DNA of 64,000 bases. Source: Heptranchias perlo (lineage: Eukaryota). The notes below the pieces were generated by a model, which was given only the letters and a program-made list of their open reading frames with translations, had not been told where the DNA came from and made no database searches. The position numbers and the translations under genes are program-made. Of this stretch, positions 6,001-64,000 are shown piece by piece. The stretch's first letter is position 1. Each line of letters begins with the position of its first letter. Location: positions 1 to 64,000 of the forward strand of contig NW_027139538.1 of assembly GCF_035084215.1 (NCBI RefSeq), read 5' to 3'.

Positions 6001-9000
6001 TAATATATAATAATGGACACACAGTCCCACCTCCTGTACTGGCACATCCCACAGTTATATATAATATATAATAATGGGCACAGAGTCCCACCTCCTGTAC
6101 TGACACATCCCACAGTTATATATAATATATAATAATGGGCACACAGTCCCACCCCCTGTACTGACACATCCCACAGTTATATATAATATATAATAATGGA
6201 CACACAGTCCCACCTCCTGTACTGACACATCCCACAGTTATATATAATATATAATAATGGACACACAGTCCCACCTCCTGTACTGACACATCCCACAGTT
6301 ATATATAATATATAATAATGGACACACAGTCACACCTCCTGTACTGACACATCCCACAGTTATATATAATATATAATAATGGACACACAGTCCCACCTCC
6401 TGTACTGACACATCCCACAGTTATATATAATATATAATAATGGACACACAGTCCCACCTCCTGTACTGACACATCCCACAGTTATATATAATATATAATA
6501 ATGGACACACAGTCCCACCCCCTGTACTGACACATCCCACAGTTATATATAATATATAATAATGGACACACAGTCCCACCTCCTGTACTGGCACATCCCA
6601 CAGTTATATATAATATATAATAATGGACACACAGTCCCACCTCCTGTACTGACACATCCCACAGTTATATATAATATATAATAATGGACACACAGTCCCA
6701 CCTCCTGTCCTGACACATCCCACAGTTATATATAATATATAATAATGGGCACACAGTCCCACCTCCTGTACTGACACATCCCACAGTTATATATAATATA
6801 TAATAATGGACACACAGTCCCACCTCCTGTACTGACACATCCCACAGTTATATATAATATATAATAATGGGCACACAGTCCCACCCCCTGTACTGACACA
6901 TCCCACAGTGATATATAATATATAATAATGGGCACACAATCCCACCTCCTGTACTGACACATCCCACAGTTATATATAATATATAATAATGGACACACAG
7001 TCCCACCTCCTGTACTGACACACCCCACAGTGATATATAATATATAATAATGGACACACACTCCCACCTCCTGTACTGACACATCCCACAGTTATATATA
7101 ATATATAATAATGGGCACACAATCCCACCTCCAGTACTGACACATCCCACAGTTATATATAATATATAATAATGGGCACACAGTCCCACCTCCTGTACTG
7201 ACACATCCCACAGTTATATATAATATATAATAATGGACACACAGTCCCACCTCCTGTACTGACACATCCCACAGTTATATATAATATATAATAATGGGCA
7301 CACAGTCCCACCCCCTGTACTGACACATCCCACAGTGATATATAATATATAATAATGGGCACACAATCCCACCTCCTGTACTGACACATCCCACAGTTAT
7401 ATATAATATATAATAATGGACACACAGTCCCACCCCCTGTACTGACACATCCCACAGTTATATATAATATATAATAATGGACACACAGTCCCACCTCCTG
7501 TACTGGCACACCCCACAGTTATATATAATATATAATAATGGACACACAGTCCCACCTCCTGTACTGGCACACCCCACAGTTATATATAATATATAATAAT
7601 GGACACACAGTCCCACCCCCTGTACTGACACACCCCACAGTTATATATAATATATAATAATGGACACACAGTCCCACCTCCTGTACTGACACATCCCACA
7701 GTTATATATAATATATAATAATGGACACACAGTCCCACCCCCTGTACTGACACACCCCACAGTTATATATAATATATAATAATGGACACACAGTTCCACC
7801 CCCTGTACTGACACACCCCACAGTTATATATAATATATAATAATGGACACACAGTCCCACCTCCTGTACTGACACATCCCACAGTTATATATAATATATA
7901 ATAATGGACACACAGTCCCACCTCCAGTACTGACACATCCCACAGTTATATATAATATATAATAATGGACACACAGTCCCACCCCCTGTACTGACACATC
8001 CCACAGTTATATATAATATATAATAATGGACACACAGTCCCACCCCCTGTACTGACACATCCCACAGTTATATATAATATATAATAATGGACACACAGTC
8101 CCACCTCCTGTACTGACACACCCCACAGTTATATATAATATATAATAATGGACACACAGTCCCACCCCCTGTACTGACACATCCCACAGTTATATATAAT
8201 ATATAATAATGGACACACAGTCCCACCTCCTGTACTGACACACCCCACAGTTATATATAATATATAATAATGGACACACAGTCCCACCTCCTGTACTGAC
8301 ACATCCCACAGTTATATATAATATATAATAATGGACACACAGTCCCACCCCCTGTACTGACACATCCCACAGTTATATATAATATATAATAATGGACACA
8401 CAGTCCCACCCCCTGTACTGACACATCCCACAGTTATATATAATATATAATAATGGACACACAGTCCCACCTCCTGTACTGACACACCCCACAGTTATAT
8501 ATAATATATAATAATGGACACACAGTCCCACCTCCTGTACTGACACATCCCACAGTTATATATAATATATAATAATGGACACACAGTCCCACCCCCTGTA
8601 CTGACACATCCCACAGTTATATATAATATATAATAATGGACACACAGTCCCACCCCCTGTACTGACACATCCCACAGTTATATATAATATATAATAATGG
8701 ACACACAGTCCCACCTCCTGTCCTGGCACATCCCACAGTTATATATAATATATAATAATGGACACACAGTCCCACCCCCTGTACTGACACATCCCACAGT
8801 TATATATAATATATAATAATGGACACACAGTCCCACCTCCTGTACTGACACATCCCACAGTTATATATAATATATAATAATGGACACACAGTCCCACCTC
8901 CTGTACTGACACATCCCACAGTTATATATAATATATAATAATGGACACACAGTCCCACCCCCTGTACTGACACATCCCACAGTTATATATAATATATAAT

Positions 9001-12000
9001 AATGGACACACAGTCCCACCCCCTGTACTGACACATCCCACAGTTATATATAATATATAATAATGGACACACAGTCCCACCTCCTGTACTGACACATCCC
9101 ACAGTTATATATAATATATAATAATGGACACACAGTCCCACCTCCTGTACTGACACATCCCACAGTTATATATAATATATAATAATGGGCACACAGTCCC
9201 ACCTCCTGTACTGACACATCCCACAGTTATATATAATATATAATAATGGACACACAATCCCACCCCCTGTACTGACACATCCCACAGTTATATATAATAT
9301 ATAATAATGGGCACACAGTCCCACCCCCTGTACTGACACATCCCACAGTTATATATAATATATAATAATGGGCACACAGTCCCACCTCCTGTACTGACAC
9401 ATCCCACAGTTATATATAATATATAATAATGGGCACACAGTCCCACCTCCTGTACTGACACATCCCACAGTTATATATAATATATAATAATGGACACACA
9501 GTCCCACCCCCTGTACTGACACATCCCACAGTTATATATAATATATAATAATGGACACACAGTCCCACCTCCTGTACTGACACATCCCACAGTTATATAT
9601 AATATATAATAATGGGCACACAGTCCCACCTCCTGTACTGACACATCCCACAGTTATATATAATATATAATAATGGGCACACAATCCCACCTCCTGTACT
9701 GACACATCCCACAGTTATATATAATATATAATAATGGACACACAGTCCCACCTCCTGTACTGACACATCCCACAGTTATATATAATATATAATAATGGAC
9801 ACACAGTCCCACCTCCTGTACTGACACATCCCACAGTTATATATAATATATAATAATGGACACACAGTCCCACCCCCTGTACTGACACATCCCACAGTTA
9901 TATATAATATATAATAATGGACACACAGTCCCACCTCCTGTACTGGCACACCCCACAGTTATATATAATATATAATAATGGACACACAGTCCCACCTCCT
10001 GTACTGGCACACCCCACAGTTATATATAATATATAATAATGGACACACAGTCCCACCCCCTGTACTGACACACCCCACAGTTATATATAATATATAATAA
10101 TGGACACACAGTCCCACCTCCTGTACTGACACATCCCACAGTTATATATAATATATAATAATGGACACACAGTCCCACCCCCTGTACTGACACACCCCAC
10201 AGTTATATATAATATATAATAATGGACACACAGTCCCACCTCCTGTACTGACACATCCCACAGTTATATATAATATATAATAATGGACACACAGTCCCAC
10301 CCCCTGTACTGACACACCCCACAGTTATATATAATATATAATAATGGACACACAGTTCCACCCCCTGTACTGACACACCCCACAGTTATATATAATATAT
10401 AATAATGGACACACAGTCCCACCTCCTGTACTGACACATCCCACAGTTATATATAATATATAATAATGGACACACAGTCCCACCCCCTGTACTGACACAT
10501 CCCACAGTTATATATAATATATAATAATGGACACACAGTCCCACCTCCTGTACTGACACATCCCACAGTTATATATAATATATAATAATGGACACACAGT
10601 CCCACCTCCTGTACTGACACATCCCACAGTTATATATAATATATAATAATGGACACACAGTCCCACCTCCAGTACTGACACATCCCACAGTTATATATAA
10701 TATATAATAATGGACACACAGTCCCACCCCCTGTACTGACACATCCCACAGTTATATATAATATATAATAATGGACACACAGTCCCACCTCCTGTACTGA
10801 CACACCCCACAGTTATATATAATATATAATAATGGACACACAGTCCCACCTCCTGTACTGACACATCCCACAGTTATATATAATATATAATAATGGACAC
10901 ACAGTCCCACCCCCTGTACTGACACATCCCACAGTTATATATAATATATAATAATGGACACACAGTCCCACCCCCTGTACTGACACATCCCACAGTTATA
11001 TATAATATATAATAATGGACACACAGTCCCACCCCCTGTACTGACACATCCCACAGTTATATATAATATATAATAATGGACACACAGTCCCACCTCCTGT
11101 ACTGACACATCCCACAGTTATATATAATATATAATAATGGACACACAGTCCCACCTCCTGTACTGACACATCCCACAGTTATATATAATATATAATAATG
11201 GACACACAGTCCCACCCCCTGTACTGACACATCCCACAGTTATATATAATATATAATAATGGACACACAGTCCCACCTCCTGTACTGACACATCCCACAG
11301 TTATATATAATATATAATAATGGACACACAGTCCCACCTCCTGTACTGGCACATCCCACAGTTATATATAATATATAATAATGGACACACAGTCCCACCT
11401 CCTGTACTGGCACATCCCACAGTTATATATAATATATAATAATGGACACACAGTCCCACCCCCTGTACTGACACATCCCACAGTTATATATAATATATAA
11501 TAATGGGCACACAGTCCCACCCCCTGTACTGACACATCCCACAGTTATATATAATATATAATAATGGACACACAGTCCCACCCCCTGTACTGACACATCC
11601 CACAGTTATATATAATATATAATAATGGGCACACAGTCCCACCCCCTGTACTGGCACATCCCACAGTTATATATAATATATAATAATGGACACACAGTCC
11701 CACCTCCTGTACTGACACATCCCACAGTTATATATAATATATAATAATGGACACACAGTCCCACCTCCTGTACTGACACATCCCACAGTTATATATAATA
11801 TATAATAATGGACACACAGTCCCACCTCCTGTACTGGCACATCCCACAGTTATATATAATATATAATAATGGACACACAGTCCCACCTCCTGTACTGACA
11901 CATCCCACAGTTATATATAATATATAATAATGGGCACACAGTCCCACCTCCTGTACTGACACATCCCACAGTTATATATAATATATAATAATGGACACAC

Positions 12001-12561
12001 AGTCCCACCCCCTGTACTGACACATCCCACAGTTATATATAATATATAATAATGGACACACAGTCCCACCTCCTGTACTGACACACCCCACAGTTATATA
12101 TAATATATAATAATGGACACACAGTCCCACCTCCTGTACTGGCACATCCCACAGTTATATATAATATATAATAATGGGCACACAGTCCCACCTCCTGTAC
12201 TGACACATCCCACAGTTATATATAATATATAATAATGGACACACAGTCCCACCTCCTGTACTGACACATCCCACAGTTATATATAACATATAATAATGTA
12301 CACACAGTCCCACCTCCTGTACTGACATATCCCACAGTTATATATAATATATAATAATGGACACACAGTCCCACCTCCTGTACTGGCACATCCCACAGTT
12401 ATTTATAATAGATAATAATGGACACACAGTCCCACCTCCTGTACTGGCACATCCCACAGTTATATATAATATATAATAATGGACACACAGTCCCACCTCC
12501 TGGACTGACACATCCCACAGTTATATATAATATATAATAATGGACACACAGTCCCACCTCC
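1..12561. repeat. 61-bp tandem satellite (~206 copies), runs off the left edge
   Basis: Unit CACAGTTATATATAATATATAATAATGGACACACAGTCCCACCTCCTGTACTGACACATCC repeated head to tail. It shifts 1 nt per 60-nt line, giving a period of 61. A few recurrent variant sites (GGA/GGG, CTC/CCC, TGA/TGG, ATC/ACC, GTT/GTG). Confidence 0.99.
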
Positions 12562-12562
12562 T

Positions 12563-12721
12563 GGAGGGAGAGAGGGTGAGGAACGGGGAGAGGGAGAGAG
12601 GGTGAGGGAGGGAGGGAGAAGGTGAGGGAGGGAGGGGGAGAGGGAGAGAGGGAGAGGGTGAGGGAGGGGGAGAGGGAGAGAGGGAGAGAGGGTGAGGGAG
12701 GGAGGGGGAGAGGGGGAGAGG
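12563..12721 (+). repeat. Polypurine (G/A-rich) low-complexity tract
   Basis: Almost pure G/A with GGG runs (GAGGGAGAGAGGGTGAGGGAGGGAGG...), lying between the satellite and the J RSS. Confidence 0.95.
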
Positions 12722-12738
12722 CTCACGCAGGGGGCAGA

Positions 12739-12777
12739 GGATATTGTACAGCTCCTGCACTGTCAGCTCTCAGTGTG
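12739..12777 (-). promoter_or_regulatory. Recombination signal sequence of the J segment (23-bp spacer)
   Basis: Plus strand reads nonamer GGATATTGT (12739-12747; consensus GGTTTTTGT, 7/9), exactly 23-nt spacer (12748-12770), heptamer CAGTGTG (12771-12777; consensus CACTGTG, 6/7) abutting the J coding sequence. A 23-spacer at J is the kappa-type configuration. Confidence 0.92.
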
Positions 12778-12812
12778 GGTTACGTTCGGTAAAGGAACCA
12801 AGCTCAGACTCA
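12778..12812 (+). CDS. IGKJ: Immunoglobulin light-chain J segment (kappa/NS4-like), germline unrearranged
   Basis: g GTT ACG TTC GGT AAA GGA ACC AAG CTC AGA CTC A encodes VTFGKGTKLRL, with the FGxGT motif. A phase-1 donor GTGAGT follows at 12813. It splices in frame to the C exon (A+CC = Thr, then REKVQPS). Too short for the ORF track. Confidence 0.95.
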
Positions 12813-13396
12813 GTGAGTAAATTTACTAACCATTATTAACCCGTTAAATGCTGAACCTTTCTCACACACCAATGCTGAATACTCGAAGGTGTTGGTGGGG
12901 AGCTGCGGTGAATGAAATGGTTCATTGAAGAGTACTTTGTATGACAGGGTCCCAGGCGGTACTTTCTTTAGTTCCACTCCCCCCTTCGACCAGCAAAGTA
13001 TAAGTAACAAACTTTTACTGAGAGTGTGGAGGAGATCTGGGCGTTTGCAGACTGCAGTCACATTCCTGCACCATTGAGTGGAATAACTCACTGGAATCCT
13101 GGCAGTCTCAGTGCCAACAGACACGGGCAGAGTGTGGGGTGAGCCCTGGGCACTCTGTGCCCTGTAGGACTCTCTCTGATGTAACTGAGCACAGCATCAG
13201 CACAGTGAGACAAGCACAGAGGTCCCACCTCGAAACACACAACTCTCCTCCAGCTTTAACTGGGAGATCTGTCCAGTCCCCCGTTACCTGGTGTCCAAGT
13301 TCTGCTCACAAACGGGTACAGCAGGGCTCTCAATCGATTGGATTCATGTTCAAGGGGTTTGGGGAGACTCTCAGTTGCTTTTTCTTTGGGTCGAGT

Positions 13397-13601
13397 CCAG
13401 GTCGATATTTACCCCAAAAACCAACATCGCTAAAAATGGCCATTTATCTCATTGCTGTTTGTGGGATCTTGCTGTGCACAAATTGGCTGCCACATTTCCC
13501 ACATTACAACAGTGACTACACTTCAGAAAAAGTACTTCATTGGCTGTAAAGCACTTTGGGCGGTCCTGGGATTGTGAAAGGTGCCATAAAAATACAAGTT
13601 C
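13397..13601 (+). mobile_element. 5'-truncated Deu-domain SINE (SacSINE1/AmnSINE1-like), 3' portion
   Basis: CATTGCTGTTTGTGGGATCTTGCTGTGCACAAATTGGCTGCC...ACAACAGTGACTACACTTCA...TTCATTGGCTGTAAAGCACTTTGGG...AAAGGTGCCATAAAAATACAAG. It aligns internally with 14677-14756. Family assignment is from recall of the DeuSINE consensus. Confidence 0.8.
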
Positions 13602-14011
13602 CTCCCATTCTTTTGATGAACTGGGGTCTCAGACAATTCCCCTGTTTAAATCTGAACCGGCAGAAAATCCCCCCAGAAAACTGATTAATATTGGCCTGAT
13701 TTGTCTGCGTGTTTATTAGACGTGACAGACCAGACAGGGAGAGTTTCACCAGCAACAAAGGACGTTCCATTCGTGCCCGTCCCACTTTCCCGATCGACTT
13801 ACGACATTCTTACAGGTAAACAATCTCTGCCCACTGCCATCGACCGGTTCCATATCACCCCTCTAGACTGTAGGCATACCCGTGATCTGCTCCCCTCCTC
13901 TCTCCTGAAGGCACTGCCTCTGGCTGGGGTAAAGCTCCACCTTCCCCAAGTGGGGTCATTCCTCCAAGTCTGAGCCCGGAGGGTGAGCGCGGCAGGCTAT
14001 TCGACCATGAG

Positions 14012-14756
14012 GTGTCAGCCATGGCTCAGTGGGTATCACTCTCACCTCTGGGTCAGAAGGTCGTGGGTTCAAGACCCACTCCAGAGACTTGAGCCCATAA
14101 TCCAGGCTGACACTCCCGGTGCAGTACTGAGGGAGTGCTGCACTGTCGGAGGGCCAGTACTGAGGGAGTGCTGCACTGTCGGAGGGTCAGTACTGAGGGA
14201 GTGCTGCACTGTCGGAGGGCCAGTACTGAGGGAGTTCTGCACTGTCGGAGGGTCAGTACTGAGGGAGTGCTGCACTGTCGGAGGGCCAGTACTGAGGGAG
14301 TTCTGCACTGTCGGAGGGCCAGTACTGAGGGAGTGCTGCACTGTCGGAGGGCCAGTACTGAGGGAGTGCTGCACTGTCGGAGGGTCAGTACTGAGGGAGT
14401 GCTGCACTGTCGGAGGGCCAGTACTGAGGGAGTTCTGCACTGTCGGAGGGCCAGTACTGAGGGAGTGCTGCACTGTCGGAGGGCCAGTACTGAGGGAGTT
14501 CTGCACTGTCGGAGGGCCAGTACTGAGGGAGTGCTGCACTGTCGGAGGTGCCGTCTTTCGGGTGAGACATTAAACCGAGGCCCCGTCTGCCCTCTCAGGT
14601 GGATGTAAAAGATCCCACAGCACGATTTGAAGAAGAGCAGTGGAGTTCACCCCGGTGTTAAAACAGATGATCTGCTCATTGCTGTTTGTGGGATCTTGCT
14701 GTGTGCAAATTGGCTGCTGTGTTTCTCACATAAAAACAGTGACTGCACTTCAAAAG
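14012..14756 (+). mobile_element. tRNA-derived Deu-domain SINE (SacSINE1-like) with internal VNTR; 3' tail missing
   Basis: Pol III box A TGGCTCAGTGG (14022-14032) and box B GGTTCAAGACC (14066-14076). Deu core GTCGGAGGTGCCGTCTTTCGGGTGAGACATTAAACCGAGGCCCCGTCTGCCCTCTCAGGTGGATGTAAAAGATCCC. Confidence 0.85.
14122..14548. repeat. 33-bp minisatellite (13 copies) inside the SINE
   Basis: Unit CAGTACTGAGGGAGTGCTGCACTGTCGGAGGGC/T. It produces the 11-aa periodic ORFs in the track. Confidence 0.97.
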
Positions 14757-14764
14757 TGGGAGAA

Positions 14765-14959
14765 TCCTGATCCTGACCCTGACCCTCCCTGACCTTGACC
14801 CCGATCCTGAACCTGACCCTCCCTGACCCTGATCCTGACCCTGACCCTCCCTGACCTTGACCCCGATCCTGACCCTCCCTGACCCTGATCCTGACCCTGA
14901 CCCTCCCTGACCTTGACCCCGATCCTGACCCTCCCTGACCCCGATCCTGACCCTGACCC
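14765..14959. repeat. Degenerate (CCCTGA)n hexamer repeat
   Basis: CCTGATCCTGACCCTGACCCTCCCTGACCTTGACCCCGAT...; a short echo at ~15008-15030. The reverse strand reads (TCAGGG)n. Confidence 0.93.
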
Positions 14960-15570
14960 ATTGTCCACACTCACCTTCCAGGGGGTCGTGGGATAATTAG
15001 GAGCGGTGACCCTCCCTGACCCTGACCCTGAGGTCAATTGTAGCCTGACCCCAGTGCTGGGAGGCAAGGTTTTCAATGAAATCTGGAACCTTCTCCACCC
15101 AGCCCCACGATGAAGCCTTTCTGAAGTGTGTTGATACAAGTCTGCTCCAGGGTCCAATGTTCTGGGGTAAAGTTCCCCCTGATCTGTGTGTGATCTGAGC
15201 TTTGTTAATGCTGAGCCTGTTTCCTCCAGATAGACTGATCTATAGTTCGAGCTTCCTGCCCGGTTAACAGCGTCTTAAAGGGACACCCAGTCTTTAAGTA
15301 CTCTGACTATTAACCATTTCATCGCTGAATTTGTGGCAACCCTTCATTGCAGATGTTTATCGAACAGTCCAATCTGATTTATCCATCTTAACATCAAACC
15401 ATCCGGTGTATTTATATTTAGATTAAATTTGAGAGGCAAAAAAAAGCAAATTAAGAATTAGCGATGCTCACCTGAAATGGTTAATCGTCCGCCGGGAGTT
15501 CATTGTCCCAGCAATCCGTTATCTGAGGTGAATTTTCCAAACACAGAAACACCCACAGAGACACGCACCC

Positions 15571-16225
15571 AAATATACACAACAGAACACACCAATATAC
15601 ACAACAGAACACACCAATATACACAACAGAACACACCAATATACACAACAGAACACACCAATATACACAACAGAACACACCAATATACACAACAGAACAC
15701 ACCAATATAGACAAAAGAATGCACCAATATACACAACAGAACACACCAATATGCACAACAGAACGCACCAATATACACAACAGAATGTGCACCAATATAC
15801 ACAACAGAATGTGCACCAATATGCACAACAGAATGTGCACAAATATACACAACAGAACACACCAATATACACAAAAGAATGCACCAATATACACAACAGA
15901 ATGTGCACAAATATACACAACAGAACACACCAATATGCACAACAGAATGTGCACAAATATACACAACAGAACACACCAATATGCACAACAGAATGCACCA
16001 ATATACACCACAGAATGTACACAAATATACACAACAGAACACACCAATATACACAACAGAACACACCAATATGCACAACAGAACACACCAATATACACAA
16101 CAGAACACACCAATATACACAACAGAATGCACCAATATACACAACAGAATGTACACAAATATACACAACAGAACACACCAATATACACAACAGAATGTGC
16201 ACAAATATACACAACAGAACACCCA
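15571..16225. repeat. 22/24-bp CA-rich minisatellite (~29 copies)
   Basis: Unit AATATACACAACAGAACACACC with a longer variant AATATACACAACAGAATGTGCACA/C. Confidence 0.96.
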
Positions 16226-16355
16226 AGTACACACACACAGATGTGTCACATTAAGTTGTACGACTGACACTAATACCTTCCCCAGCCTGTCTGCTCAGGA
16301 GCAGGTTTCTGCACCGTGAACATGTGTCTCATTACATATTCATGACACCGGGTTC

Positions 16356-16363
16356 ATTTGCAT
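16356..16363 (+). promoter_or_regulatory. Ig octamer motif ATTTGCAT (candidate intronic enhancer element)
   Basis: Perfect octamer in non-repetitive intron sequence, with E-boxes CATGTG at 16321 and CATGTGG at 16656. Function is inferred only. Confidence 0.4.
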
Positions 16364-16716
16364 TTCTTTTCCCATCACTTGCCTTTCTCTTCAGCCTTTT
16401 AAAGTAAAGTCTGAGCCCATTTCCCCCCAGACTCTGGGCCTTTTCCATTTTGGGATGTTGGTTGTTTTAAGATGGTGTTTCGAGGGGCCATTCCCGAGGG
16501 TCTGTGACACAGGAAGTGCTGTTGTCTGACAGTTATTCCTTGTATTCACCACCCCAGCTCCGTGCAGCTCTCCCGGTCGATCTGCTCTGAATGGAGACAG
16601 GACACTGGCTGCCTGCCGTAGTCACAAGACTGTGACCCGCCCAGCTCCCCAATGGCATGTGGGCACTGAGACACACACACCAGGAGGAGCCCAGCTTCAT
16701 TCCCTGGTCCGTGCCG

Positions 16717-16975
16717 AGGAACAGGAGGAGGCCATTCAGCCCCTCCAGCCTGTTCCTCCATTGAATGAGATCATGACTGGTCTGTCCCTGATCTCCATTT
16801 ACCCTCCTTTGCTCCATATCCTCGATACCCTCCCCCAACAAAAATCGATCCATCTCAGTACTGAAAGCTCCTATTGACCCCCACCATCCACAGCCTTTTG
16901 GGGGAGGGGGTTCCAGATTTCCACTCCCCCTTGAGTGAAAAAGTGCTTCCTGATTTCACCCCTGAATGGCCAGGC
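16717..16975 (-). mobile_element. CR1-type LINE 3' fragment
   Basis: Plus strand begins AGGAACAGGAGGAGGCCATTCAGCCCCTCCAGCCTGTT, the reverse complement of a CR1-like 3' end. The minus-strand translation DRFLLGEGIEDM resembles the CR1 ORF2 C-terminus. It is similar to 18212-18370. Confidence 0.72.
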
Positions 16976-16983
16976 TCGAATTA

Positions 16984-17033
16984 CATAGAATTACATGGAA
17001 TTTACAGCACAGAAACAGGCCATTCGGCCCAAC
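16984..17033 (-). mobile_element. Very short CR1-type 3' end
   Basis: CATAGAATTACATGGAATTTACAGCACAGAAACAGGCCATTCGGCCCA closely matches 17292-17338. Confidence 0.6.
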
Positions 17034-17291
17034 AGTAGTGTTAGGATTGTGTCCCCTTGTTCTGGGGGGGTTGCCGCTGAGGAGCAGCCGTTGGACTTGG
17101 TGCCCCCTCTAAATGAGGGAAAGGGGTTCCTGCTCCTGATTGCCATCCAGCGACACCCCCCTTCTCTCCCCCAACACCCCCCACTGTTGAAGGCAATGGT
17201 TTCAGGAGATGAGGGGAGAATGAACACAGAAACACAGTGAGGGCCAGTCCCTGTGTTATCTTGTCCCACTCTTACCCTGTGTGGGGGGTTT

Positions 17292-17697
17292 CATAGAATC
17301 ACAGAATCATACAGCACAGAAGGAGGCCATTCGGCCCATCCTCCCTCTGCTAGCTCTTTGAAAGAGCTATCCAATTAGTCTCACTCCCCTGCTCTTTCCC
17401 CAGAGCCCTGACATTTTTTCCCTTTTCAAGTATTTATTCGGTTCCCTTTTGAAAGTTACTATTGAATCTTCCTCCCCCCACCCTTTCAGGCCGTGTGTTC
17501 CAGATCACAACAACTCGCTGAGCAAAACAATTTCTCCATCTCTCCTCTCTGGTTCTTTACCAATTACCTCAAACCCGTTACCTCTGGTTACCGACCCTCC
17601 TGCCACTGGAAACAGTTCCTCCCGATTTGCTCCATTAAAACCCTTCATGATTTTGAGCACCTCTATTAAATCTCCCCTTGACCTTCTCTGCTCGAAG
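17292..17697 (-). mobile_element. CR1-type LINE 3' fragment (ORF2 C-terminus plus 3' UTR)
   Basis: Minus-strand peptide RRSRGDLIEVLKIMKGFNGANREELFPVAGGSVTRGNGFEVIG matches the CR1 ORF2 tail motif RRLRGDLIEVYKI...LFP...TRGH. It ends in an (ATTCTRTG)-like terminal microsatellite. Confidence 0.88.
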
Positions 17698-17787
17698 GGT
17701 CGTCTCAATAACACCACACAGTTTTGCTGGCCCGTTTTACTGGCTGTTCATTTTATGCTCTCCCCTCATGGGATCAGACTCTGTCGA

Positions 17788-18424
17788 TCTGCTGCCCGTA
17801 TCCTAACTCGTACCAAGTCCCGTTCACCCATCACCCCAGTGCTCGCTGACCTACATCGGCTCCCGGTCCAGCAAAGTCCTCATCTTTGTTTTCAAATCCC
17901 TCCATGGCCTTGCCCTGCCCAATCTCTGTAACCTCCTCCAGCCCTACAACCCTCCGAGATCTCTGCGCTCCTCCAATTCTGGTCTCTTGTTCATCCCCGA
18001 TTTTCATCGCTCCACCATTGGCGGCCGTGCCTTCAGCTGCCTGGGCCCTAAGCTCTGGAATTCCCGCCCTAAACTTCTTTGCCCCTCCCCCTCTCTCTCC
18101 TCCTTTAAGACGCTCCTTCAAACCTACCTCTTTGACCAAGCTTTGAGTCACCAGTCCTAATATCTCCTCAAGAGTCAATTTCTGTCCGAGAAACTTCCTG
18201 TGAAGCGCCTTAGGGACATGGGAAAAGGAGGAGGCCATTCAGCCCCTCGAGCATGTTCTGTCATTCAATTAGATCATGGCTGATGTGCATCGTAACTCTG
18301 TCCACCGGCCTTCATTTCCTGACCCTTAATAATCTTGTCTAACAAAAACCTATCGGTCTCAGTTTTGAATCCTTGGGATGTTTTACCATGTTAAAGGCAC
18401 CATATAAATGCAAGTTGTTGTTGT
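17788..18424 (+). mobile_element. L2-clade LINE 3' fragment, interrupted near its tail
   Basis: Peptide SAARILTRTKSRSPITPVLADLHRLPVQQ fits the L2-type AAR...HITPVL..LHWLPV motif and is followed by frameshifts. The tail CTGTGAAGCGCCTT // GGGATGTTTTACCATGTTAAAGGCACCATATAAATGCAAG(TTG)n ends at 18424. Confidence 0.82.
18212..18370 (-). mobile_element. CR1-type 3' fragment nested in the L2 tail
   Basis: GGAGGAGGCCATTCAGCCCCTCGAGC...CATTCAATTAGATCATGGCTGAT is homologous to 16724-16785 and splits the L2 tail. Confidence 0.72.
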
Positions 18425-18596
18425 AGTGGAGTGCAGGTCAATAAGAGGTTGTCGTGGGTACGGTGCGGGGCTCCTCAGACTGGCCCTGTGCTGCCAGCCG
18501 AGGCCTTGCCCACCGTCCCACTCTGGCCCTCGCGAGGAGGCCTCGGGGAGAGACTCCAAACTCCCATTAAAAGTCCTTGTCTTTCATCTCTTCCAG

Positions 18597-18925
18597 CCCG
18601 AGAGAAGGTTCAACCATCGCTGACCCTGATGCCCCCCTCCCCGGAGGAGGTCTCGGCCAAGGGCACTGCCACCCTGGTGTGCCTCGTCGATCACTTCTAC
18701 CCCGACGCTGTGGGGGTGGAGTGGAAGAAGGACGGGGCGGCCATTTCGGGCGGGGTTCAGACCAGTGACTACCTGCGAGCTTCGGACAACACCTACAGTG
18801 TCAGTAGCCTGCTGACCCTCTCCGGCTCCGACTGGAAGTCTGACGCCAGCTTCTCCTGCGCCATCACCCACGAGACCCTTCAGTCTCCCCTCAGCAAGAG
18901 CATCAGGAGAACAGAATGTTCATAG
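18597..18925 (+). CDS. IGKC: Immunoglobulin light-chain constant exon, kappa (shark NS4/type III-like)
   Basis: (T)REKVQPSLTLMPPSPEEVSAKGTATLVCLVDHFYPDAVGVEWKKDG...YSVSSLLTLSGSDWKSDASFSCAITHETLQSPLSKSIRRTECS*. This is a C1-set domain with both Cys, the Trp, FYP and a penultimate Cys for the H-L disulfide. AG acceptor at 18595-18596, TAG at 18923-18925. Kappa assignment comes from recalled similarity to nurse shark NS4 and the 23-RSS on J. Confidence 0.96.
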
Positions 18926-19081
18926 AGCGTCAGAGACAGTCCACAGAGGAGACGGAACCTTAAATATAACAGGGGGCGAGTGGGGAGGGCAAAGGTCATT
19001 GTCAGCACTGCATTTCGACTCTCTTCCTTATCGTGATTGGGTCTGAGACGCTTCTCAGGTTGGGGGTTAAGGCACATTATT

Positions 19082-19694
19082 GGGACAGTGTAGAGGGAGC
19101 TTTACTCTGTATCTAACCCGTGCTGTACCTGCCCTGGGAGTGTTTGATGGGACAGTGTAGAGGGAACTTTACTCTGTATCTAACCCGTGCTGTACCTACC
19201 CTGGGAGTGTTTGATGGGACAGTGTAGAGGGAGCTTTACTCTGTATCTAACCCGTGCTGTACCTGCCCTGGGAGTGTTTGATGGGACAGTGTAGAGGGAA
19301 CTTTACTCTGTATCTAACCCGTGCTGTACCTACCCTGGGAGTGTTTGATGGGACAGTGTAGAGGGAGCTTTACTCTGTATCTAACCCGTGCTGTACCTGC
19401 CCTGGGAGTGTTTGATGGGACAGTGTAGAGGGAGCTTTACTCTGTATCTAACCCGTGCTGTACCTACCCTGGGAGTGTTTGATGGGACAGTGTAGAGGGA
19501 GCTTTACTCTGTATCTAACCCGTGCTGTACCTGCCCTGGGAGTGTTTGATGGGACAGTGCAGAGGGAGCTTTACTCTGTATCTAACCCGTGCTGTACCTG
19601 CCCTGGGAGTGTTTGATGGGACAGTGCAGAGGGAGCTTTACTCTGTATCTAACCCGTGCTGTACCTGCCCTGGGAGTGTTTGATGGGACAGTGT
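19082..19694. repeat. 67-bp minisatellite (9 full copies plus a partial) in the putative 3' UTR
   Basis: Unit GGGACAGTGTAGAGGGAGCTTTACTCTGTATCTAACCCGTGCTGTACCTGCCCTGGGAGTGTTTGAT; copies start at 19082, 19149 ... 19685. Confidence 0.98.
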
Positions 19695-19709
19695 CGACTT
19701 GTGATGCCA

Positions 19710-19715
19710 AATAAA
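19710..19715 (+). terminator. Probable polyadenylation signal AATAAA
   Basis: First canonical AATAAA after the C stop codon; further ones at 19982 and ~20227. Confidence 0.6.
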
Positions 19716-20295
19716 ACCTCTCTCAGACCCTGAAGACTGTCAGCTGAGCAAAAATAATGTTAAACACGGAAGTCCCCGCTTCAGTAAGACCAGACCTCCT
19801 TCCTGCTCACCCTGCAGTTATAATTTAAGGTTTTGTCACCGTTTAAAGGGACAGGATTCTCCCATTATTGAGCAAATGCCCACAGCCGTTTTAATCAATC
19901 TTCTCTCTCCCTGTGTATTTCTCCTACTCGTTGGGCTGTTTATTCAATTCTTTTTTCTGTGAATGTAAATGTGTAAAAGGTAATAAATGTTCAGAATATT
20001 CAGTCTCCGTCTCGTGAGTGCTGTGGAAATGTCCCACCTCCCCCTCAGCTGGATTGGCTGCATTTCAGCAAGTGACTCTCCTGGTTGGGCTGTCAATCAA
20101 TGCATCACCAGCTGATGATTTGATTAAAACCCAATTCTCAATCATTTCAACATTTTCAGTTTTCCCTCGAATCCAAAGACTATGTTTTCAGGATAAAGCA
20201 CAAAGTGTACAAGTTATAAAACAGAAAATAAACTCCAAGCTGCTGGGATTAAATCATCAAAGGCCCAGAATTCACTCTTCACTCTGCACACTGGA

Positions 20296-20333
20296 GGTGT
20301 TGGTCCAGTCCAAGCTGGTGGGATCGCACTGTG
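20296..20333 (-). promoter_or_regulatory. Candidate orphan RSS downstream of C (J-type orientation, 22-nt spacer)
   Basis: GGTGTTGGT (20296-20304, 7/9), 22 nt, then CACTGTG (20327-20333, perfect). No FGxG J coding sequence follows. Confidence 0.35.
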
Positions 20334-20513
20334 CTCTGTGCTGACTGTCAGGGTCCAGTGTGAAATGGGCTCGGGGCAAAGTCAGGTCTGAAAGTCACAG
20401 TCAGAACACCTCATTCTCTCTCCTTAATGTGTTGCTCGTGGTAACAGATCAAATCTATACCGAATCAGGTCTCCACTTCTCAGAGAGAGGAGGGGTCAGA
20501 GTATAACTGTGTA

Positions 20514-23500
20514 CATGCCCCTGAGTGTCAGTGTGACTGTTTCCCAGTACTGTCTGTAGGTGGATGTCCCTGACTGTCAGTGTGACTGTTACCCAGTACT
20601 GTCGGTAGGTGCATGTCGCTGACTGTCAGTGTGACTGTTACCCAGTACTGTCTGTAGGTGGATGGCCCTGACTGTCAGTGTGACTGTTTCCCAGTACTGT
20701 CTGTAGGTGCATGTCCCTGACTGTCAGTGTGACTGTTACCCAGTACTGTCTGTAGGTGCATGTCCCTGACTGTCAGTGCGACTGTTACCCAGTACTGTCT
20801 GTTGGTGGATGTGCCTGACTGTCAGTGCGACTGTTACCCAGTACTGTCTGTAGGTGCATGTCCCTGACTGTCGGTGCGACTGTTACCCAGTACTGTCTGT
20901 AGGTGGATGTGCCTGACTGTCAGTGCGACTGTTACCCAGTACTGTCTGTAGGTGCATGTCCCTGACTGTCAGTACGACTGTTTCCCAGTACTGTCTGTAG
21001 GTGGATGTCCCTGACTGTCGGTGCGACTGTTCCCCAGTACTGTCTGTAGGTGCATGTCCCTGACTGTCAGTATGACTGTTACCCAGTACTGTCTGTAGGT
21101 GGATGTCCCTGACTGTCGGTGCGACTGTTACCCAGTACTGTCTGTAGGTGGATGTCCCTGACTGTCGGTGCGACTGTTCCCCAGTACTGTTTGTATGTGC
21201 ATGTCCCTGACTGTCAGTATTACTGTTACCCAGTACTGTCTGTAGGTGCATGGCCCTGACTGTCGGTGCGACTGTTACCCAGTACTGTCTGTAGGTGCAT
21301 GTCCCTGTCAGTGTGACTGTTACCTCGTACTGTCTGAAGGTGCATGTCCCTGTCAGTGTGACTGTTACCCAGTACTGTCTGTTGGTGGATGTCCCTGACT
21401 GTCGGTGCGACTGTTACCCAGTACTGTCTGTTGGTGCATTTCCCTGACTGTCGGTGCGACTGTTTCCCAGTACTGTCTGTAGGTGCATGTCCCTGACTGT
21501 CGGTGCGACTGTTACCCAGTACTGTCTGTAGGTGGATGTCCCTGACTGTCGGTGCGACTGTTACCCAGTACTGTCTGTAGGTGCATGTCCCTGACTGTCG
21601 GTGCGACTGTTACCCAGTACTGTCTGTTGGTGCATGTCCCTGACTGTCAGTACGACTGTTACCCAGTACTGTCTGTTGGTGCATGTCCCTGACTGTCAGT
21701 ACGACTGTTTCCCAGTACTGTCTGCAGGTGCATGTCCCTGACAGTCGGTGCGACTGTTACCCAGTACTGTCTGTAGGTGCATGTCCCTGTCAGTGTGACT
21801 GTTACCTCGTACTGTCTGTAGGTGCATGTCCCTGACTGTTAGTGTGACTGTTACCCAGTACTGTCTGTTGGTGCATGTCCCTGACTGTCAGTACGACTGT
21901 TTCCCAGTACTGTCTGTAGGTGCATGTCGCTGACTGTCGGTGCGACTGTTTCCCAGTACTGTCTGTAGGTGCATGTTCCTGTCAGTGTGACTGTTACCTC
22001 GTACTGTCTGTAGGTGCAGGTCCCTGACTGTCAGTGTGACTGTTACCCAGTACTGTCTGTTGGTGCATGTCCCTGACTGTCAGTACGACTGTTACCCAGT
22101 ACTGTCTGTAGGTGCATGTCCCTGACTGTCAGTACGACTGTTTCCCAGTACTGTCTGTAGGTGCATGGCCCTGACTGTCAGTGCGACTGTTACCCAGTAC
22201 TGTCTGTAGGTGGATGTCCCTGACTGTCGGTGCGACTGTTACCCAGTACTGTCTGTAGGTGCATGGCCCTGACTGTCGGTGCGACTGTTACCCAGTACTG
22301 TCTGTAGGTGCATGGCCCTGACTGTCGGTGCGACTGTTACCCAATCCTGTCTGTAGGTGCATGGCCCTGACTGTCGGTGCGACTGTTACCCAGTACTGTC
22401 TGTAGGTGCATGGCCCTGACTGTCGGTGTGACTGTTACCCAGTACTGTCTGTAGGTGCATGTCCCTGACTGTCAGTGTGACTGTTACCCAGTACTGTCTG
22501 TAGGTGGATGTCCTTGACTATCGGTGTGACTGTTACCCAGTACTGTCTGTAGGTGCATGTCCCTGACTGTCAGTGTGACTGTTACCCAGTACTGTCTGTA
22601 GGTGCATGTCCCTGCCTGTCGGTGTGACTGTTACCCAGTACTGTCTGTAGGTGGATGTCCTTGACTGTCGGTGTGACTGTTACCCAGTACTGTCTGTAGG
22701 TGGATGTCCTTGACTGTCGGTGTGACTGTTACCCAGTACTGTCTGTTGGTGGATGTCCCTGACTGTCAGTGTGACTGTTACCCAGTACTGTCTGTAGGTG
22801 GATGTCCCTGACTGTCAATGTGACTGTTTCCCAGTACTGTCTGTAGGTGCATGTCCCTGACTGTCAGTATGACTGTTACCCAGTACTGTCTGTAGGTGGA
22901 TGTGCCTGACTGTCAGTGCGACTGTTACCCAGTACTGTCTGTAGGTGCATGTCCCTGACTGTCAGTACGACTGTTTCCCAGTACTGTCTGTAGGTGGATG
23001 TCCCTGACTGTCGGTGCGACTGTTCCCCAGTACTGTCTGTAGGTGCATGTCCCTGACTGTCAGTATGACTGTTACCCAGTACTGTCTGTAGGTGGATGTC
23101 CCTGACTGTCGGTGCGACTGTTACCCAGTACTGTCTGTAGGTGGATGTCCCTGACTGTCGGTGCGACTGTTCCCCAGTACTGTCTGTATGTGCATGTCCC
23201 TGACTGTCAGTATTACTGTTACCCAGTACTGTCTGTAGGTGCATGGCCCTGACTGTCGGTGCGACTGTTACCCAGTACTGTCTGTAGGTGCATGTCCCTG
23301 TCAGTGTGACTGTTACCTCGTACTGTCTGAAGGTGCATGTCCCTGTCAGTGTGACTGTTACCCAGTACTGTCTGTTGGTGGATGTCCCTGACTGTCTGTG
23401 CGACTGTTACCCAGTACTGTCTGTTGGTGCATTTCCCTGACTGTCGGTGCGACTGTTTCCCAGTACTGTCTGTAGGTGCATGTCCCTGACTGTCGGTGCG

Positions 23501-26500
23501 ACTGTTACCCAGTACTGTCTGTAGGTGGATGTCCCTGACTGTCGGTGCGACTGTTACCCAGTACTGTCTGTAGGTGCATGTCCCTGACTGTCGGTGCGAC
23601 TGTTACCCAGTACTGTCTGTTGGTGCATGTCCCTGACTGTCAGTACGACTGTTACCCAGTACTGTCTGTTGGTGCATGTCCCTGACTGTCAGTACGACTG
23701 TTTCCCAGTACTGTCTGCAGGTGCATGTCCCTGACAGTCGGTGCGACTGTTACCCAGTACTGTCTGTAGGTGCATGTCCCTGTCAGTGTGACTGTTACCT
23801 CGTACTGTCTGTAGGTGCATGTCCCTGACTGTTAGTGTGACTGTTACCCAGTACTGTCTGTTGGTGCATGTCCCTGACTGTCAGTACGACTGTTTCCCAG
23901 TACTGTCTGTAGGTGCATGTCGCTGACTGTCGGTGCGACTGTTTCCCAGTACTGTCTGTAGGTGCATGTTCCTGTCAGTGTGACTGTTACCTCGTACTGT
24001 CTGTAGGTGCAGGTCCCTGACTGTCAGTGTGACTGTTACCCAGTACTGTCTGTTGGTGCATGTCCCTGACTGTCAGTACGACTGTTACCCAGTACTGTCT
24101 GTAGGTGCATGTCCCTGACTGTCAGTACGACTGTTTCCCAGTACTGTCTGTAGGTGCATGGCCCTGACTGTCAGTGCGACTGTTACCCAGTACTGTCTGT
24201 AGGTGGATGTCCCTGACTGTCGGTGCGACTGTTACCCAGTACTGTCTGTAGGTGCATGGCCCTGACTGTCGGTGCGACTGTTACCCAGTACTGTCTGTAG
24301 GTGCATGGCCCTGACTGTCGGTGCGACTGTTACCCAATCCTGTCTGTAGGTGCATGGCCCTGACTGTCGGTGCGACTGTTACCCAGTACTGTCTGTAGGT
24401 GCATGGCCCTGACTGTCGGTGTGACTGTTACCCAGTACTGTCTGTAGGTGCATGTCCCTGACTGTCAGTGTGACTGTTACCCAGTACTGTCTGTAGGTGG
24501 ATGTCCTTGACTATCGGTGTGACTGTTACCCAGTACTGTCTGTAGGTGCATGTCCCTGACTGTCAGTGTGACTGTTACCCAGTACTGTCTGTAGGTGCAT
24601 GTCCCTGCCTGTCGGTGTGACTGTTACCCAGTACTGTCTGTAGGTGGATGTCCTTGACTGTCGGTGTGACTGTTACCCAGTACTGTCTGTAGGTGGATGT
24701 CCTTGACTGTCGGTGTGACTGTTACCCAGTACTGTCTGTTGGTGGATGTCCCTGACTGTCAGTGTGACTGTTACCCAGTACTGTCTGTAGGTGGATGTCC
24801 CTGACTGTCAATGTGACTGTTTCCCAGTACTGTCTGTAGGTGCATGTCCCTGACTGTCAGTATGACTGTTACCCAGTACTGTCTGTAGGTGGATGTGCCT
24901 GACTGTCAGTGCGACTGTTACCCAGTACTGTCTGTAGGTGCATGTCCCTGACTGTCAGTACGACTGTTTCCCAGTACTGTCTGTAGGTGGATGTCCCTGA
25001 CTGTCGGTGCGACTGTTCCCCAGTACTGTCTGTAGGTGCATGTCCCTGACTGTCAGTATGACTGTTACCCAGTACTGTCTGTAGGTGGATGTCCCTGACT
25101 GTCGGTGCGACTGTTACCCAGTACTGTCTGTAGGTGGATGTCCCTGACTGTCGGTGCGACTGTTCCCCAGTACTGTCTGTATGTGCATGTCCCTGACTGT
25201 CAGTATTACTGTTACCCAGTACTGTCTGTAGGTGCATGGCCCTGACTGTCGGTGCGACTGTTACCCAGTACTGTCTGTAGGTGCATGTCCCTGTCAGTGT
25301 GACTGTTACCTCGTACTGTCTGTAGGTGCATGTCCCTGTCAGTGTGACTGTTACCCAGTACTGTCTGTTGGTGGATGTCCCTGACTGTCGGTGCGACTGT
25401 TACCCAGTACTGTCTGTTGGTGCATGTCCCTGACTGTCGGTGCGACTGTTACCCAGTACTGTCTGTAGGTGCATGTCCCTGACTGTCGGTGCGACTGTTA
25501 CCCAGTACTGTCTGTAGGTGCATGGCCCTGACTGTCGGTGCGACTGTTACCCAGTACTGTCTGTAGGTGCATGTCCCTGACTGTCGGTGCGACTGTTACC
25601 CAGTACTGTCTGTTGGTGCATGTCCCTGACTGTCAGTACGACTGTTACCCAGTACTGTCTGTAGGTGCATGTCCCTGACTGTCGGTGCGACTGTTTCCCA
25701 GTACTGTCTGTAGGTGCATGTTCCTGTCAGTGTGACTGTTACCTCGTACTGTCTGTAGGTGCATGTCCCTGACTGTCAGTGTGACTGTTACCCAGTACTG
25801 TCTGTTGGTGCATGTCCCTGACTGTCAGTACGACTGTTACCCAGCACTGTCTGTAGGTGCATGTCCCTGACTGTCTGTACGACTGTTTCCCAGTACTGTC
25901 TGTAGGTGCATGGCCCTGACTGTCAGTGTGACTGTTACCCAGTACTGTCTGTAGGTGGATGTCCCTGACTGTCGGTGCGACTGTTACCCAGTACTGTCTG
26001 TAGGTGCATGGCCCTGACTGTCGGTGCGACTGTTACCCAGTACTGTCTGTAGGTGCATGGCCCTGACTGTCGGTGTGACTGTTACCCAGTACTGTCTGTA
26101 GGTGCATGTCCCTGACTGTCAGTGTGACTGTTACCCAGTACTGTCTGTAGGTGGATGTCCTTGACTGTCGGTGTGACTGTTACCCAGTACTGTCTGTAGG
26201 TGCATGTCCCTGACTGTCAGTGTGACTGTTACCCAGTACTGTCTGTAGGTGCATGTCCCTGCCTGTCGGTGTGACTGTTACCCAGTACTGTCTGTAGGTG
26301 GATGTCCTTGACTGTCGGTGTGACCGTTACCCAGTACTGTCTGTAGGTGGATGTCCTTGACTGTCGGTGTGACTGTTACCCAGTACTGTCTGTTGGTGGA
26401 TGTCCCTGCCTGTCAGTGTGACTGTTACCCAGTACTGTCTGTAGGTGGATGTCCCTGACTGTCAATGTGACTGTTTCCCAGTACTGTCTGTAGGTGCATG

Positions 26501-62500: not shown

Positions 62501-64000
62501 ACTGTTACCCAGTACTGTCTGTAGGTGCATGTCCCTGACTGTCGGTGCGACTGTTACCCAGTACTGTCTGTAGGTGCATGTCCCTGACTGTCAGTGTGAC
62601 TGTTACCCAGTACTGTCTGTAGGTGGATGTCCCTGACTGTCAGTGCGACTGTTACCCAGTACTGTCTGTAGGTGCATGTCCCTGACTGTCAGTGTGACTG
62701 TTACCCAGTACTGTCTGTAGGTGCATGTCCCTGACTGTCAGTGTGACTGTTACCCAGTACTGTCTGTAGGTGGATGTCCCTGACTGTCAGTGTGACTGTT
62801 ACCCAGTACTGTCTGTAGGTGCATGTCCCTGACTGTCAGTGTGACTGTTACCCAGTACTGTCTGTAGGTGGATGTCCCTGACTGTCAGTGTGACTGTTAC
62901 CCAGTACTGTCTGTAGGTGCATGTCCCTGACTGTCAGTGTGACTGTTACCCAGTACTGTCTGTAGGTGCATGTCCCTGACTGTCAGTGTGACTGTTACCC
63001 AGTACTGTCTGTAGGTGGATGCCCCTGCCTGTCAGTGTGACTGTTACCCAGTACTGTCCGTGGGTGCATGTCCTTGACTGTCGGTGCGACTGTTACCCAG
63101 TACTGTCTGTAGGTGGATGTCCTTGACTGTCGGTGCGACTGTTACCCAGTACTGTCTGTAGGTGCATGTCCCTGACTGTCAGTGTGACTGTTACCCAGTA
63201 CTGTCTGTAGGTGCATGTCCCTGTCGGTGTGACTGTTACCCAGTACTGTCTGTAGGTGCATGTCCCTGACTGTCAGTGTGACTGTTACCCAGTACTGTCT
63301 GTCGGTGCATGTCCCTGACTGTCAGTGTGACTGTTACCCAGTACTGTCTGTAGGTGCATGTCCCTGACTGTCAGTGTGACTGTTACCCAGTACTGTCTGT
63401 AGGTGGATGTCCCTGACTGTCGGTGCGACTGTTACCCAGTACTGTCTGTAGGTGCATGTCCCTGACTGTCAGTGTGACTGTTACCCAGTACTGTCTGTAG
63501 GTGCATGTCCCTGACTGTCAGTGTGACTGTTACCCAGTACTGTCTGTAGGTGCATGTCCCTGACTGTCAGTGTGACTGTTACCCAGTACTGTCTGTAGGT
63601 GCATGTCCCTGACTCTCAGTGTGACTGTTACCCAGTACTGTCTGTAGGTGCATGTCCCTGACTGTCAGTGTGACTGTTTCCCAGTACTGTCTGTAGGTGC
63701 ATGTCCCTGACTGTCGGTGCGACTGTTACCCAGTACTGTCTGTAGGTGGATGTCCCTGACTGTCAGTGTGACTGTTACCCAGTACTGTCTGTAGGTGGAT
63801 GTCCCTGACTGTCAGTGTGACTGTTTCCCAGTACTGTCTGTAGGTGCATGTCCCTGACTGTCGGTGCGACTGTTACCCAGTACTGTCTGTAGGTGGATGT
63901 CCCTGACTGTCAGTGTGACTGTTACCCAGTACTGTCTGTAGGTGCATGTCCCTGACTGTCGGTGCGACTGTTACCCAGTACTGTCTGTAGGTGCATGTCC
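20514..64000. repeat. 49-bp tandem satellite (~890 copies) with higher-order structure, runs off the right edge
   Basis: Unit GTC(A/G)GTG(T/C)GACTGTTACCCAGTACTGTCTGTAGGTG(C/G)ATGTCC(C/T)TGACT, with occasional 45-bp units lacking GACT. Confidence 0.99.

What the first reader, a model, noticed from the sequence alone, without database searches (positions are those of the whole stretch)
13201..20333. Possible kappa-deleting-element (KDE/RS)-like system: lone intronic heptamer plus non-coding RSS 3' of C
Seen: an isolated perfect CACAGTG at 13201-13207 in the J-C intron with no good nonamer at 12 or 23 nt. Also GGTGTTGGT-22nt-CACTGTG at 20296-20333, 1.4 kb past the C stop, with no J after it. The two face each other across C. 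Known: in mammals the intron RS heptamer or a V-kappa RSS recombines with the 23-RSS of KDE/RS downstream of C-kappa to delete C and inactivate the allele during receptor editing. Inference: an analogous off-switch would help sharks keep isotype/allelic exclusion across many clusters, and I do not know of one being described. Caveat: two heptamers in ~8 kb can arise by chance, the spacer is 22, and the nonamer has a mismatch in the A-tract.
Basis: partly seen in the sequence, partly recalled or inferred. Interest (0 to 1): 0.7.

Follow-up and report, generated by a model that had tools for sequence, protein, structure and literature searches.

The report
Chance recombination signal in shark SINE
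Two look-alikes of antibody-gene cutting signals face each other across the constant exon of an expressed, likely shark kappa light-chain gene, but the downstream one lies inside a worn copy of a jumping element and the upstream one is about as common as chance, so they are likely a coincidence rather than a mammal-style off-switch, though untested B-cell DNA could still show otherwise.

Summary
The genome holds one such cluster plus a near-identical second copy, not many. The intron heptamer is not lone (a second lies at 17233), and one is expected by chance with P about 0.39. The 3' signal is rarer than chance (about 1e-3 oriented, 1.6e-2 loosely). But it sits inside an old tRNA-type SINE copy whose B box supplies the 'nonamer' and whose spacing gives the 22-nt spacer, so it is not a J-derived signal and is unlikely to be homologous to mammalian KDE. 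Its spacer and both nonamer mismatches are atypical of this genome's real signals. About 179 similar sites occur genome-wide. A second species keeps heptamer and nonamer intact, but no better than neutral DNA allows (P about 0.24). No deletion junction could be tested properly. Verdict: probably a cryptic RSS in a SINE relic plus a background heptamer (0.72). A convergent, SINE-derived C-deleting element stays open (about 0.22) and one PCR would settle it.

The parts
1..12563 (+). 61-bp minisatellite filling the V-J spacer (at least 206 copies; the contig starts inside it). V lies upstream in the chromosomal copy, beyond 131 copies.
   Evidence: 202 CACAGTT and 6 CACAGTG in the array
12739..12777 (-). 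Functional J signal: nonamer 12739-12747 (2 mismatches), 23-nt spacer, heptamer 12771-12777 (1 mismatch)
   Evidence: used in vivo, since V-J joined contigs exist
12778..12812 (+). J segment (VTFGKGTKLRL), splice donor at 12813
   Evidence: spliced to C in run X5
13201..13207 (+). Intron heptamer (candidate IRS). No nonamer. Middle of three GCACAG units (13189, 13200, 13214). Followed by AGACA, as is the V signal of this cluster.
   Evidence: unique sequence; background rate
17233..17239 (+).
18597..18925 (+). C exon, intact, stop at 18923-18925
19982..19987 (+). Likely main poly(A) signal; the candidate signal lies about 300 nt beyond the transcript end
   Evidence: deep RNA-type contigs end near 19970-20007
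20278..20468 (+). Decayed copy of a dispersed tRNA-type SINE (A and B boxes in the family majority); the most diverged of 31 copies aligned
   Evidence: (nhmmer E 8.8e-9)
20296..20333 (-). Candidate 3' signal inside the SINE: heptamer 20327-20333 perfect, spacer 22, nonamer 20296-20304 with 2 mismatches, in the SINE's B-box columns
   Evidence: heptamer and nonamer unchanged in organism B
20514..64000 (.). 49-bp satellite, 890 copies to the window end; it bounds the unique 3' flank to about 1.6 kb

Best explanation
The 3' motif is a cryptic recombination signal that likely arose by drift in an old SINE copy behind the C exon, and the intron heptamer is likely a background match, so the pair likely has no selected role. 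Shown: the SINE's B box already gives about 6 of 9 nonamer bases, the SINE's own spacing gives the 22-nt spacer, and four substitutions (overlapping a short CTGTGCT duplication) made the heptamer. Inferred: RAG may cut the site now and then, since the heptamer is perfect and 22 lies within 23+/-1, and would then drop the 7,133-bp C-bearing piece as a rare off-target event, not as a programmed editing step. Normal use of the locus is V-J joining across the minisatellite and splicing to C (shown in RNA-type contigs).
For: SINE origin: 40 matches scored of 565 candidates; an HMM from 30 other copies hits the window at E 8.8e-9; the signal-bearing part alone is matched by only 0.46% of 20,000 random 44-mers. 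Both nonamer mismatches fall where this genome's own signals keep A (position 3 in 10 of 10 distinct nonamer types, position 6 in 9 of 10; my tally; those signals were picked by likeness to the consensus). The SINE majority has the position-6 base and this copy lost it. Spacer 22 versus 23 in 8 of 9 long-spacer types (one uncertain 24). 179 sites genome-wide fit a tight pattern that includes this one (control 70); about 23 of the 100 listed belong to a second repeat family and about 19 others share this exact nonamer (counted by eye). Intron heptamer: P>=1 0.39, not lone, and 6 of 11 other light-chain clusters also have one (paralogues, about two independent cases). Conservation in organism B is compatible with neutrality: 0 changes in 16 motif bases at 8.4% divergence, P 0.24; 1 in 38, P 0.16.
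Against: The 3' signal is rare where it stands: P 8e-4 oriented, 1 site with <=2 total mismatches in 825 kb of control strand-bases. SINE origin explains the nonamer but does not raise the overall chance much: 0 of 30 family copies have <=2 nonamer mismatches and none has fewer than 3 heptamer mismatches. It appears at the one isotype for which such an element is predicted a priori, in the right orientation. Heptamer, nonamer and spacer length are unchanged in both organism-B contigs. Six of nine consecutive bases around the heptamer differ from the SINE majority, and the result begins CGA like J-type signals elsewhere in the genome (post hoc). The intron heptamer shares its next five bases with this cluster's V signal (about 2e-3 by the genome-wide count of 2,013; post hoc). 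The real J signal of this cluster has more mismatches (3) than the candidate (2).
Confidence: 0.72

Rival explanations
1. A convergent C-deleting element: a SINE copy was exapted as a 22/23-type signal, and RAG pairs it with the intron heptamer (after V-J joining, the only route left in a one-V, one-J cluster) or with the V 12-signal (before joining), deleting C and silencing the allele so another light-chain isotype can be used.
For: Correct geometry; local rarity; motifs intact in organism B; V-like bases after the intron heptamer; mouse IRS1 is also an isolated heptamer without nonamer (PMC2118853, abstract); species with one J can edit only by KDE-type deletion (PMC8873125, passage); real signals here tolerate 3-4 mismatches.
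Against: Spacer 22; loss of the position-3 and position-6 A's; conservation not significant; no such element behind 11 other light-chain C exons; intron heptamer at background level.
Confidence: 0.22
2. The element is homologous to mammalian KDE/RS, that is, the deleting element dates back to the first jawed vertebrates.
For: KDE is described as conserved in all mammals studied (PMC6186787, PMC8873125, passages); same isotype and layout; the SINE copy is old (59% identity to the family majority).
Against: The signal is carved out of a SINE copy; none was found in zebrafish (PMC3014032, passage); distance 1.4 kb against about 25 kb in mammals (recalled). Mammalian KDE sequence could not be obtained, so homology was not tested directly.
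Confidence: 0.03
3. A relic J segment from a lost second cluster, with its signal surviving.
For: J-type orientation; a faint GSG-like stretch about 35 nt after the heptamer (sequence).
Against: Signal and downstream bases align collinearly with the SINE family; similarity to the true J region is not significant (8.9% of shuffles as high); organism B differs at several of those bases.
Confidence: 0.03

Closest known systems
Mammalian kappa-deleting element (human Kde, mouse RS) with intron IRS1 heptamer (PMC2188845 and PMC2118853 abstracts; PMC6186787, PMC2711918, PMC8873125 passages)
   Same: Non-coding J-oriented signal 3' of C; V-oriented isolated CACAGTG in the J-C intron; joining them would delete C; same isotype (likely).
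   Different: Spacer 22 not 23; nonamer lacks two A's; SINE-derived; 1.4 kb from C; one-V one-J cluster; conservation not significant; no junction shown.
Cryptic recombination signals (cRSS) of vertebrate genomes (PMC2711918, passages and Table 1)
   Same: RSS-like sequence with no gene segment, perfect heptamer and weak nonamer; frequent in control DNA (1,532 above-threshold 23-type sites in 212 kb of mouse DNA in that paper); 179 tight look-alikes in this genome.
   Different: This one is at the strong end of the range and lies in an Ig locus in deletion geometry.
tRNA-derived SINEs; recalled resemblance to LF-SINE (family described in PMC2315648, passages)
   Same: A-box and B-box head in the family majority; dispersed, 3 hits in 200 kb of random genome; old, diverged copies.
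   Different: The LF-SINE label is recalled and untested; that paper calls LF-SINE specific to lobe-finned fishes. No Rfam match in the window copy.
Shark kappa (NS4 / type III) V-J-C miniloci (PMC5192425, PMC2193156, passages)
   Same: One V with 12-signal, one J with 23-signal, one C; somatically joined and expressed.
   Different: One cluster here against about 60 in nurse shark; V-J spacer swollen to 8 kb or more by a minisatellite.

Membership tests
KDE/RS system | Lies at an Ig kappa locus | tested here: inconclusive
   Light-chain V and C, V 12-signal and J 23-signal, distinct from three other light-chain groups at 43-50% C identity. The kappa label rests on recalled likeness to nurse shark NS4 and on unchecked scan notes about the 61-bp spacer repeat; no tree was built.
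KDE/RS system | Non-coding J-oriented signal 3' of C | tested here: met
   no J after it
KDE/RS system | 23-bp spacer | tested here: not met
   22 nt; KDEs described with 23 (PMC6186787). Within the 23+/-1 tolerance given in PMC12443594.
KDE/RS system | Isolated V-oriented heptamer in the J-C intron | tested here: met
   13201 and 17233, but at background frequency
KDE/RS system | Conserved across species above neutral flanks | tested here: inconclusive
   3' motifs unchanged in organism B, P 0.24 under neutrality. Intron heptamer lies in the last 15 nt of the only organism-B contig, where differences are not listed.
KDE/RS system | Lymphocyte-specific deletion junctions and excision circles | not testable with these tools
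   Only assembled contigs were served, no raw lymphoid reads
KDE/RS system | Sequence homology to mammalian KDE flanks | not testable with these tools
   Papers with the sequences were not held or held as abstracts only
tRNA-derived SINE copy | Dispersed family with many diverged copies | tested here: met
tRNA-derived SINE copy | Pol III A and B boxes in the head | tested here: met
   Seen in the family majority (box patterns recalled); B box degraded and A box not recognisable in the window copy
tRNA-derived SINE copy | Window signal collinear with the family | tested here: met
LF-SINE | Match to the LF-SINE consensus | not testable with these tools
   No repeat library available; resemblance recalled only
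Functional RSS | Cleaved by RAG1/2 with a 12-type partner | not testable with these tools
   Needs an assay; no RIC model on hand

The most novel reading that the evidence does not exclude
Sharks evolved their own kappa off-switch, independently of mammals, by turning the B-box region of an ancient SINE into a RAG target 1.4 kb behind C-kappa; it pairs with a V-like intron heptamer to delete C. This would be the first KDE-type element outside mammals that my searches show, and a retrotransposon exapted as a V(D)J signal.
Probability: 0.22. Interest if true: 0.8.

Novelty: not a real feature. Interest (0 to 1): 0.3.

Why it matters
How sharks keep light-chain exclusion with four isotypes and one-V, one-J clusters is open; reviews argue KDE cannot account for it in fish (PMC8873125, passage) and none was found in zebrafish (PMC3014032, passage). 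A real C-deleting element would give cluster-type loci an editing route and would show a SINE recruited as a RAG signal. On the likelier reading the lesson is practical: shark SINEs seed RSS look-alikes (two families seen here), so orphan signals near Ig genes need a repeat check first. A genome with a single kappa cluster makes the PCR test unusually clean.

Tried and rejected
Paralogue comparison: only one other copy, about 99% identical, both motifs unchanged, no power. Junction search: laying contigs of X1, X5, X9, X11 on 19700-20510 and of X5, X9, X10, X11 on 12725-13420 showed no joint or V/intron-type loose end at either heptamer; contigs drop rare variants, so this is no evidence either way. 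A loose end at 20334 in DNA run X1, right at the heptamer border, looked like a junction but is a germline SINE copy on C8. The runs are only guessed to be RNA; no RNA holder was listed as such. The two full stretches were laid separately, so a direct 13200-20334 joint could only have shown as a loose end. Metagenome scans for other sharks' kappa loci found nothing. Rfam: no match. Relic J: rejected. Satellite-borne signals: the 49-mer has a one-mismatch heptamer 453 times and no perfect one; by eye no nonamer goes with it. Scan notes: no look-alike windows and no note of a KDE-like element at other shark kappa loci among those shown; weak, as notes are unchecked. Three key papers were not held: Das 2009, Siminovitch 1987, Iacoangeli 2017. 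No supplements were read; those of shark genome papers could bear on novelty.
Full report
Locus. The window is the whole of contig C1371. It holds a J segment (12778-12812) with a 23-spacer signal, a 5.8-kb intron and an intact light-chain C exon (18597-18925), between a 61-bp array and a 49-bp satellite. The only close match in the genome is at C9:83.68 Mb, about 99% identical, where a leader and V with a 12-spacer signal lie upstream of 131 copies of the same array. The next C exons are at most 50% identical. A contig of run X5 carries this V joined in frame to J and spliced to C. The host is taken to be a shark and the isotype kappa; both rest on recalled likeness to nurse shark NS4, the 12/23 layout and unchecked scan notes, not on a tree.

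Observation. Both motifs exist at the stated places and face each other across C, 7,133 bp end to end. The intron heptamer has no nonamer but is not alone: a second lies at 17233 and a third in the C9 copy. The 3' nonamer reads ACCAACACC, two mismatches, after 22 nt.

Chance. In 20 random 10-kb stretches there were 34 perfect heptamers in 398,400 strand-bases. That predicts 0.49 in this intron, P>=1 0.39. Six of 11 other light-chain clusters examined also have one; these are paralogues, about two independent cases, and only 6 of the 16 or more C28 clusters were examined. The 3' signal is different. None of the 34 background heptamers had a nonamer within two mismatches; the computed chance is 8e-4 for the right orientation in 1,588 bp and 1.6e-2 under loose rules. 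One site with <=2 total mismatches was found in 825 kb of control strand-bases, and none with <=3 in 5 kb behind any of the 11 other C exons. Genome-wide a tight pattern containing this site matches 179 times against 70 for the reversed control; the list includes real J-type signals, satellites and about 23 of 100 listed copies of a second repeat, most of them with the same nonamer (counted by eye).

What the 3' signal is made of. A loose end at 20334 in DNA run X1 traced to a germline site on C8 that belongs to a dispersed family: 40 matches scored of 565 candidates, 3 hits in 200 kb of random DNA. An HMM built from 30 other copies hits the window at E 8.8e-9 (20335-20468), and pairwise alignment to the family majority runs from 20278 to 20375, through the whole signal. 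The majority has A- and B-box motifs, so it is a tRNA-type SINE; a likeness to LF-SINE is recalled and untested. The 'nonamer' occupies the B-box columns, where the majority already matches 6 of 9; the spacer is SINE sequence (15 of 22 identical); the heptamer differs from the majority at 4 of 7 and overlaps a CTGTGCT duplication. The window copy is the most diverged of 31 (0.59 identity), though the others were selected as best hits. This fixes the origin: not a J-derived signal. It does not remove the rarity, since none of 30 copies has a nonamer within two mismatches or a heptamer within two.

Comparison with real signals. Among signals next to V, D or J segments in this genome, position 3 of the nonamer is A in 10 of 10 distinct types and position 6 in 9 of 10; the candidate has C at both. 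Long spacers are 23 in 8 of 9 distinct types, one uncertain 24, none 22 (my tally; the C3 sites are presumed J signals, not checked). On the other side, real J signals carry 3-4 mismatches in total, more than the candidate.

Conservation. A second species, organism B, is the only outgroup obtained. Two of its contigs cover the 3' signal. Heptamer, nonamer and spacer length are unchanged; one spacer base differs (three low-support rows were not shown, and at most one X9 difference is unlisted). With 23 differences in 273 interior bases, the chance of 16 untouched bases is 0.24 and Fisher's test for the 38-mer gives 0.14. This favours function about fourfold but is not significant. The single intron contig ends at 13215, so the intron heptamer could not be read reliably.

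Points that keep the rival alive. The element sits at the isotype where it is predicted. The intron heptamer is followed by the same five bases as this cluster's V signal; the 12-mer occurs 2,013 times genome-wide, about 2e-3 for this intron by my arithmetic, and 0 of 62 background heptamers show it; this test is post hoc, and the site is also one of three GCACAG units. In a one-V, one-J cluster the intron route is the only editing left after V-J joining. Against this, scan notes show many shark kappa windows read in other genomes with no such element mentioned (unchecked), so one 1e-3 coincidence among them is not surprising.

Mechanism. Most likely (0.72): a cryptic signal in a SINE relic, cut by RAG at most rarely, with no selected role. 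Shown: origin, geometry, normal rearrangement. Inferred: lack of function. Rival (0.22): RAG pairs the 22-signal with the intron heptamer or the V signal, excises C on a circle and silences the allele. Homology with mammalian KDE (0.03) and a relic J (0.03) are unlikely. These odds are my judgement, not computed.

Literature. Seen as passages: PMC3014032 (no Kde/RS found in zebrafish), PMC8873125, PMC2193156, PMC2711918, PMC2315648, PMC12443594, bioRxiv 10.64898/2026.04.12.717890, PMC6186787, PMC5192425. Abstract only: PMC2188845, PMC2118853. Reference lists only: PMC3308330, PMC6901605. Searches for a shark KDE/RS listed no paper describing one, but Das 2009 and Iacoangeli 2017 were not held and no supplements were read.

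Verdict. The motifs are real; the paired system is probably not. Interest 0.3, because a one-in-five chance of a first non-mammalian deleting element can be settled by one PCR.

Noticed in passing
window 1-12563; C9:83674550-83682552: The 61-bp V-J minisatellite carries a V-oriented heptamer-like motif with a weak 23-spaced nonamer in each unit, and differs in length between the two copies (at least 206 against 131 units), yet the V is joined to J in RNA-type contigs.
   Followed up: partly
G000 C9:83.674-83.690 Mb: This genome shows a single kappa-type cluster, walled in by satellites on both sides, against about 60 in nurse shark; organism B shows several V sequences.
   Followed up: partly
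window 16356-16363 and 16511-16517: A perfect octamer and an ETS-type word 155 bp apart in unique intron sequence: candidate intronic enhancer.
   Followed up: no
window 20040-20120: Two CAGCTG E-boxes (20046, 20109) with CCAAT-like words just past the poly(A) site; the 19695-20513 stretch has only 2 differences between the two genomic copies against about 1% in the intron. Possible 3' control element.
   Followed up: no
genome-wide, e.g. C9:11709276, C13:48475749, C21:1203417: A second dispersed repeat family yields perfect heptamer + 23 + ACCAACACC look-alikes, about 23 of 100 listed hits: a systematic source of cryptic 23-signals.
   Followed up: no
G000 C1:41655-91580 and C26:756259-773869: Tandem repeats whose units read as perfect heptamer + 23 + near-consensus nonamer.
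   Followed up: no
L005:4410-4440 (C9 V exon): Framework 3 of the single V reads SGRQESTKF where the usual motif (recalled) is glycine/serine-rich; the gene is still expressed in frame.
   Followed up: no
SINE family of loci L066-L095: An old tRNA-type SINE family, roughly one copy per 70 kb, recalled to resemble LF-SINE, which PMC2315648 calls specific to lobe-finned fishes; its distal part also resembles the 67-bp unit repeated in this gene's 3' UTR (19081-19694).
   Followed up: partly
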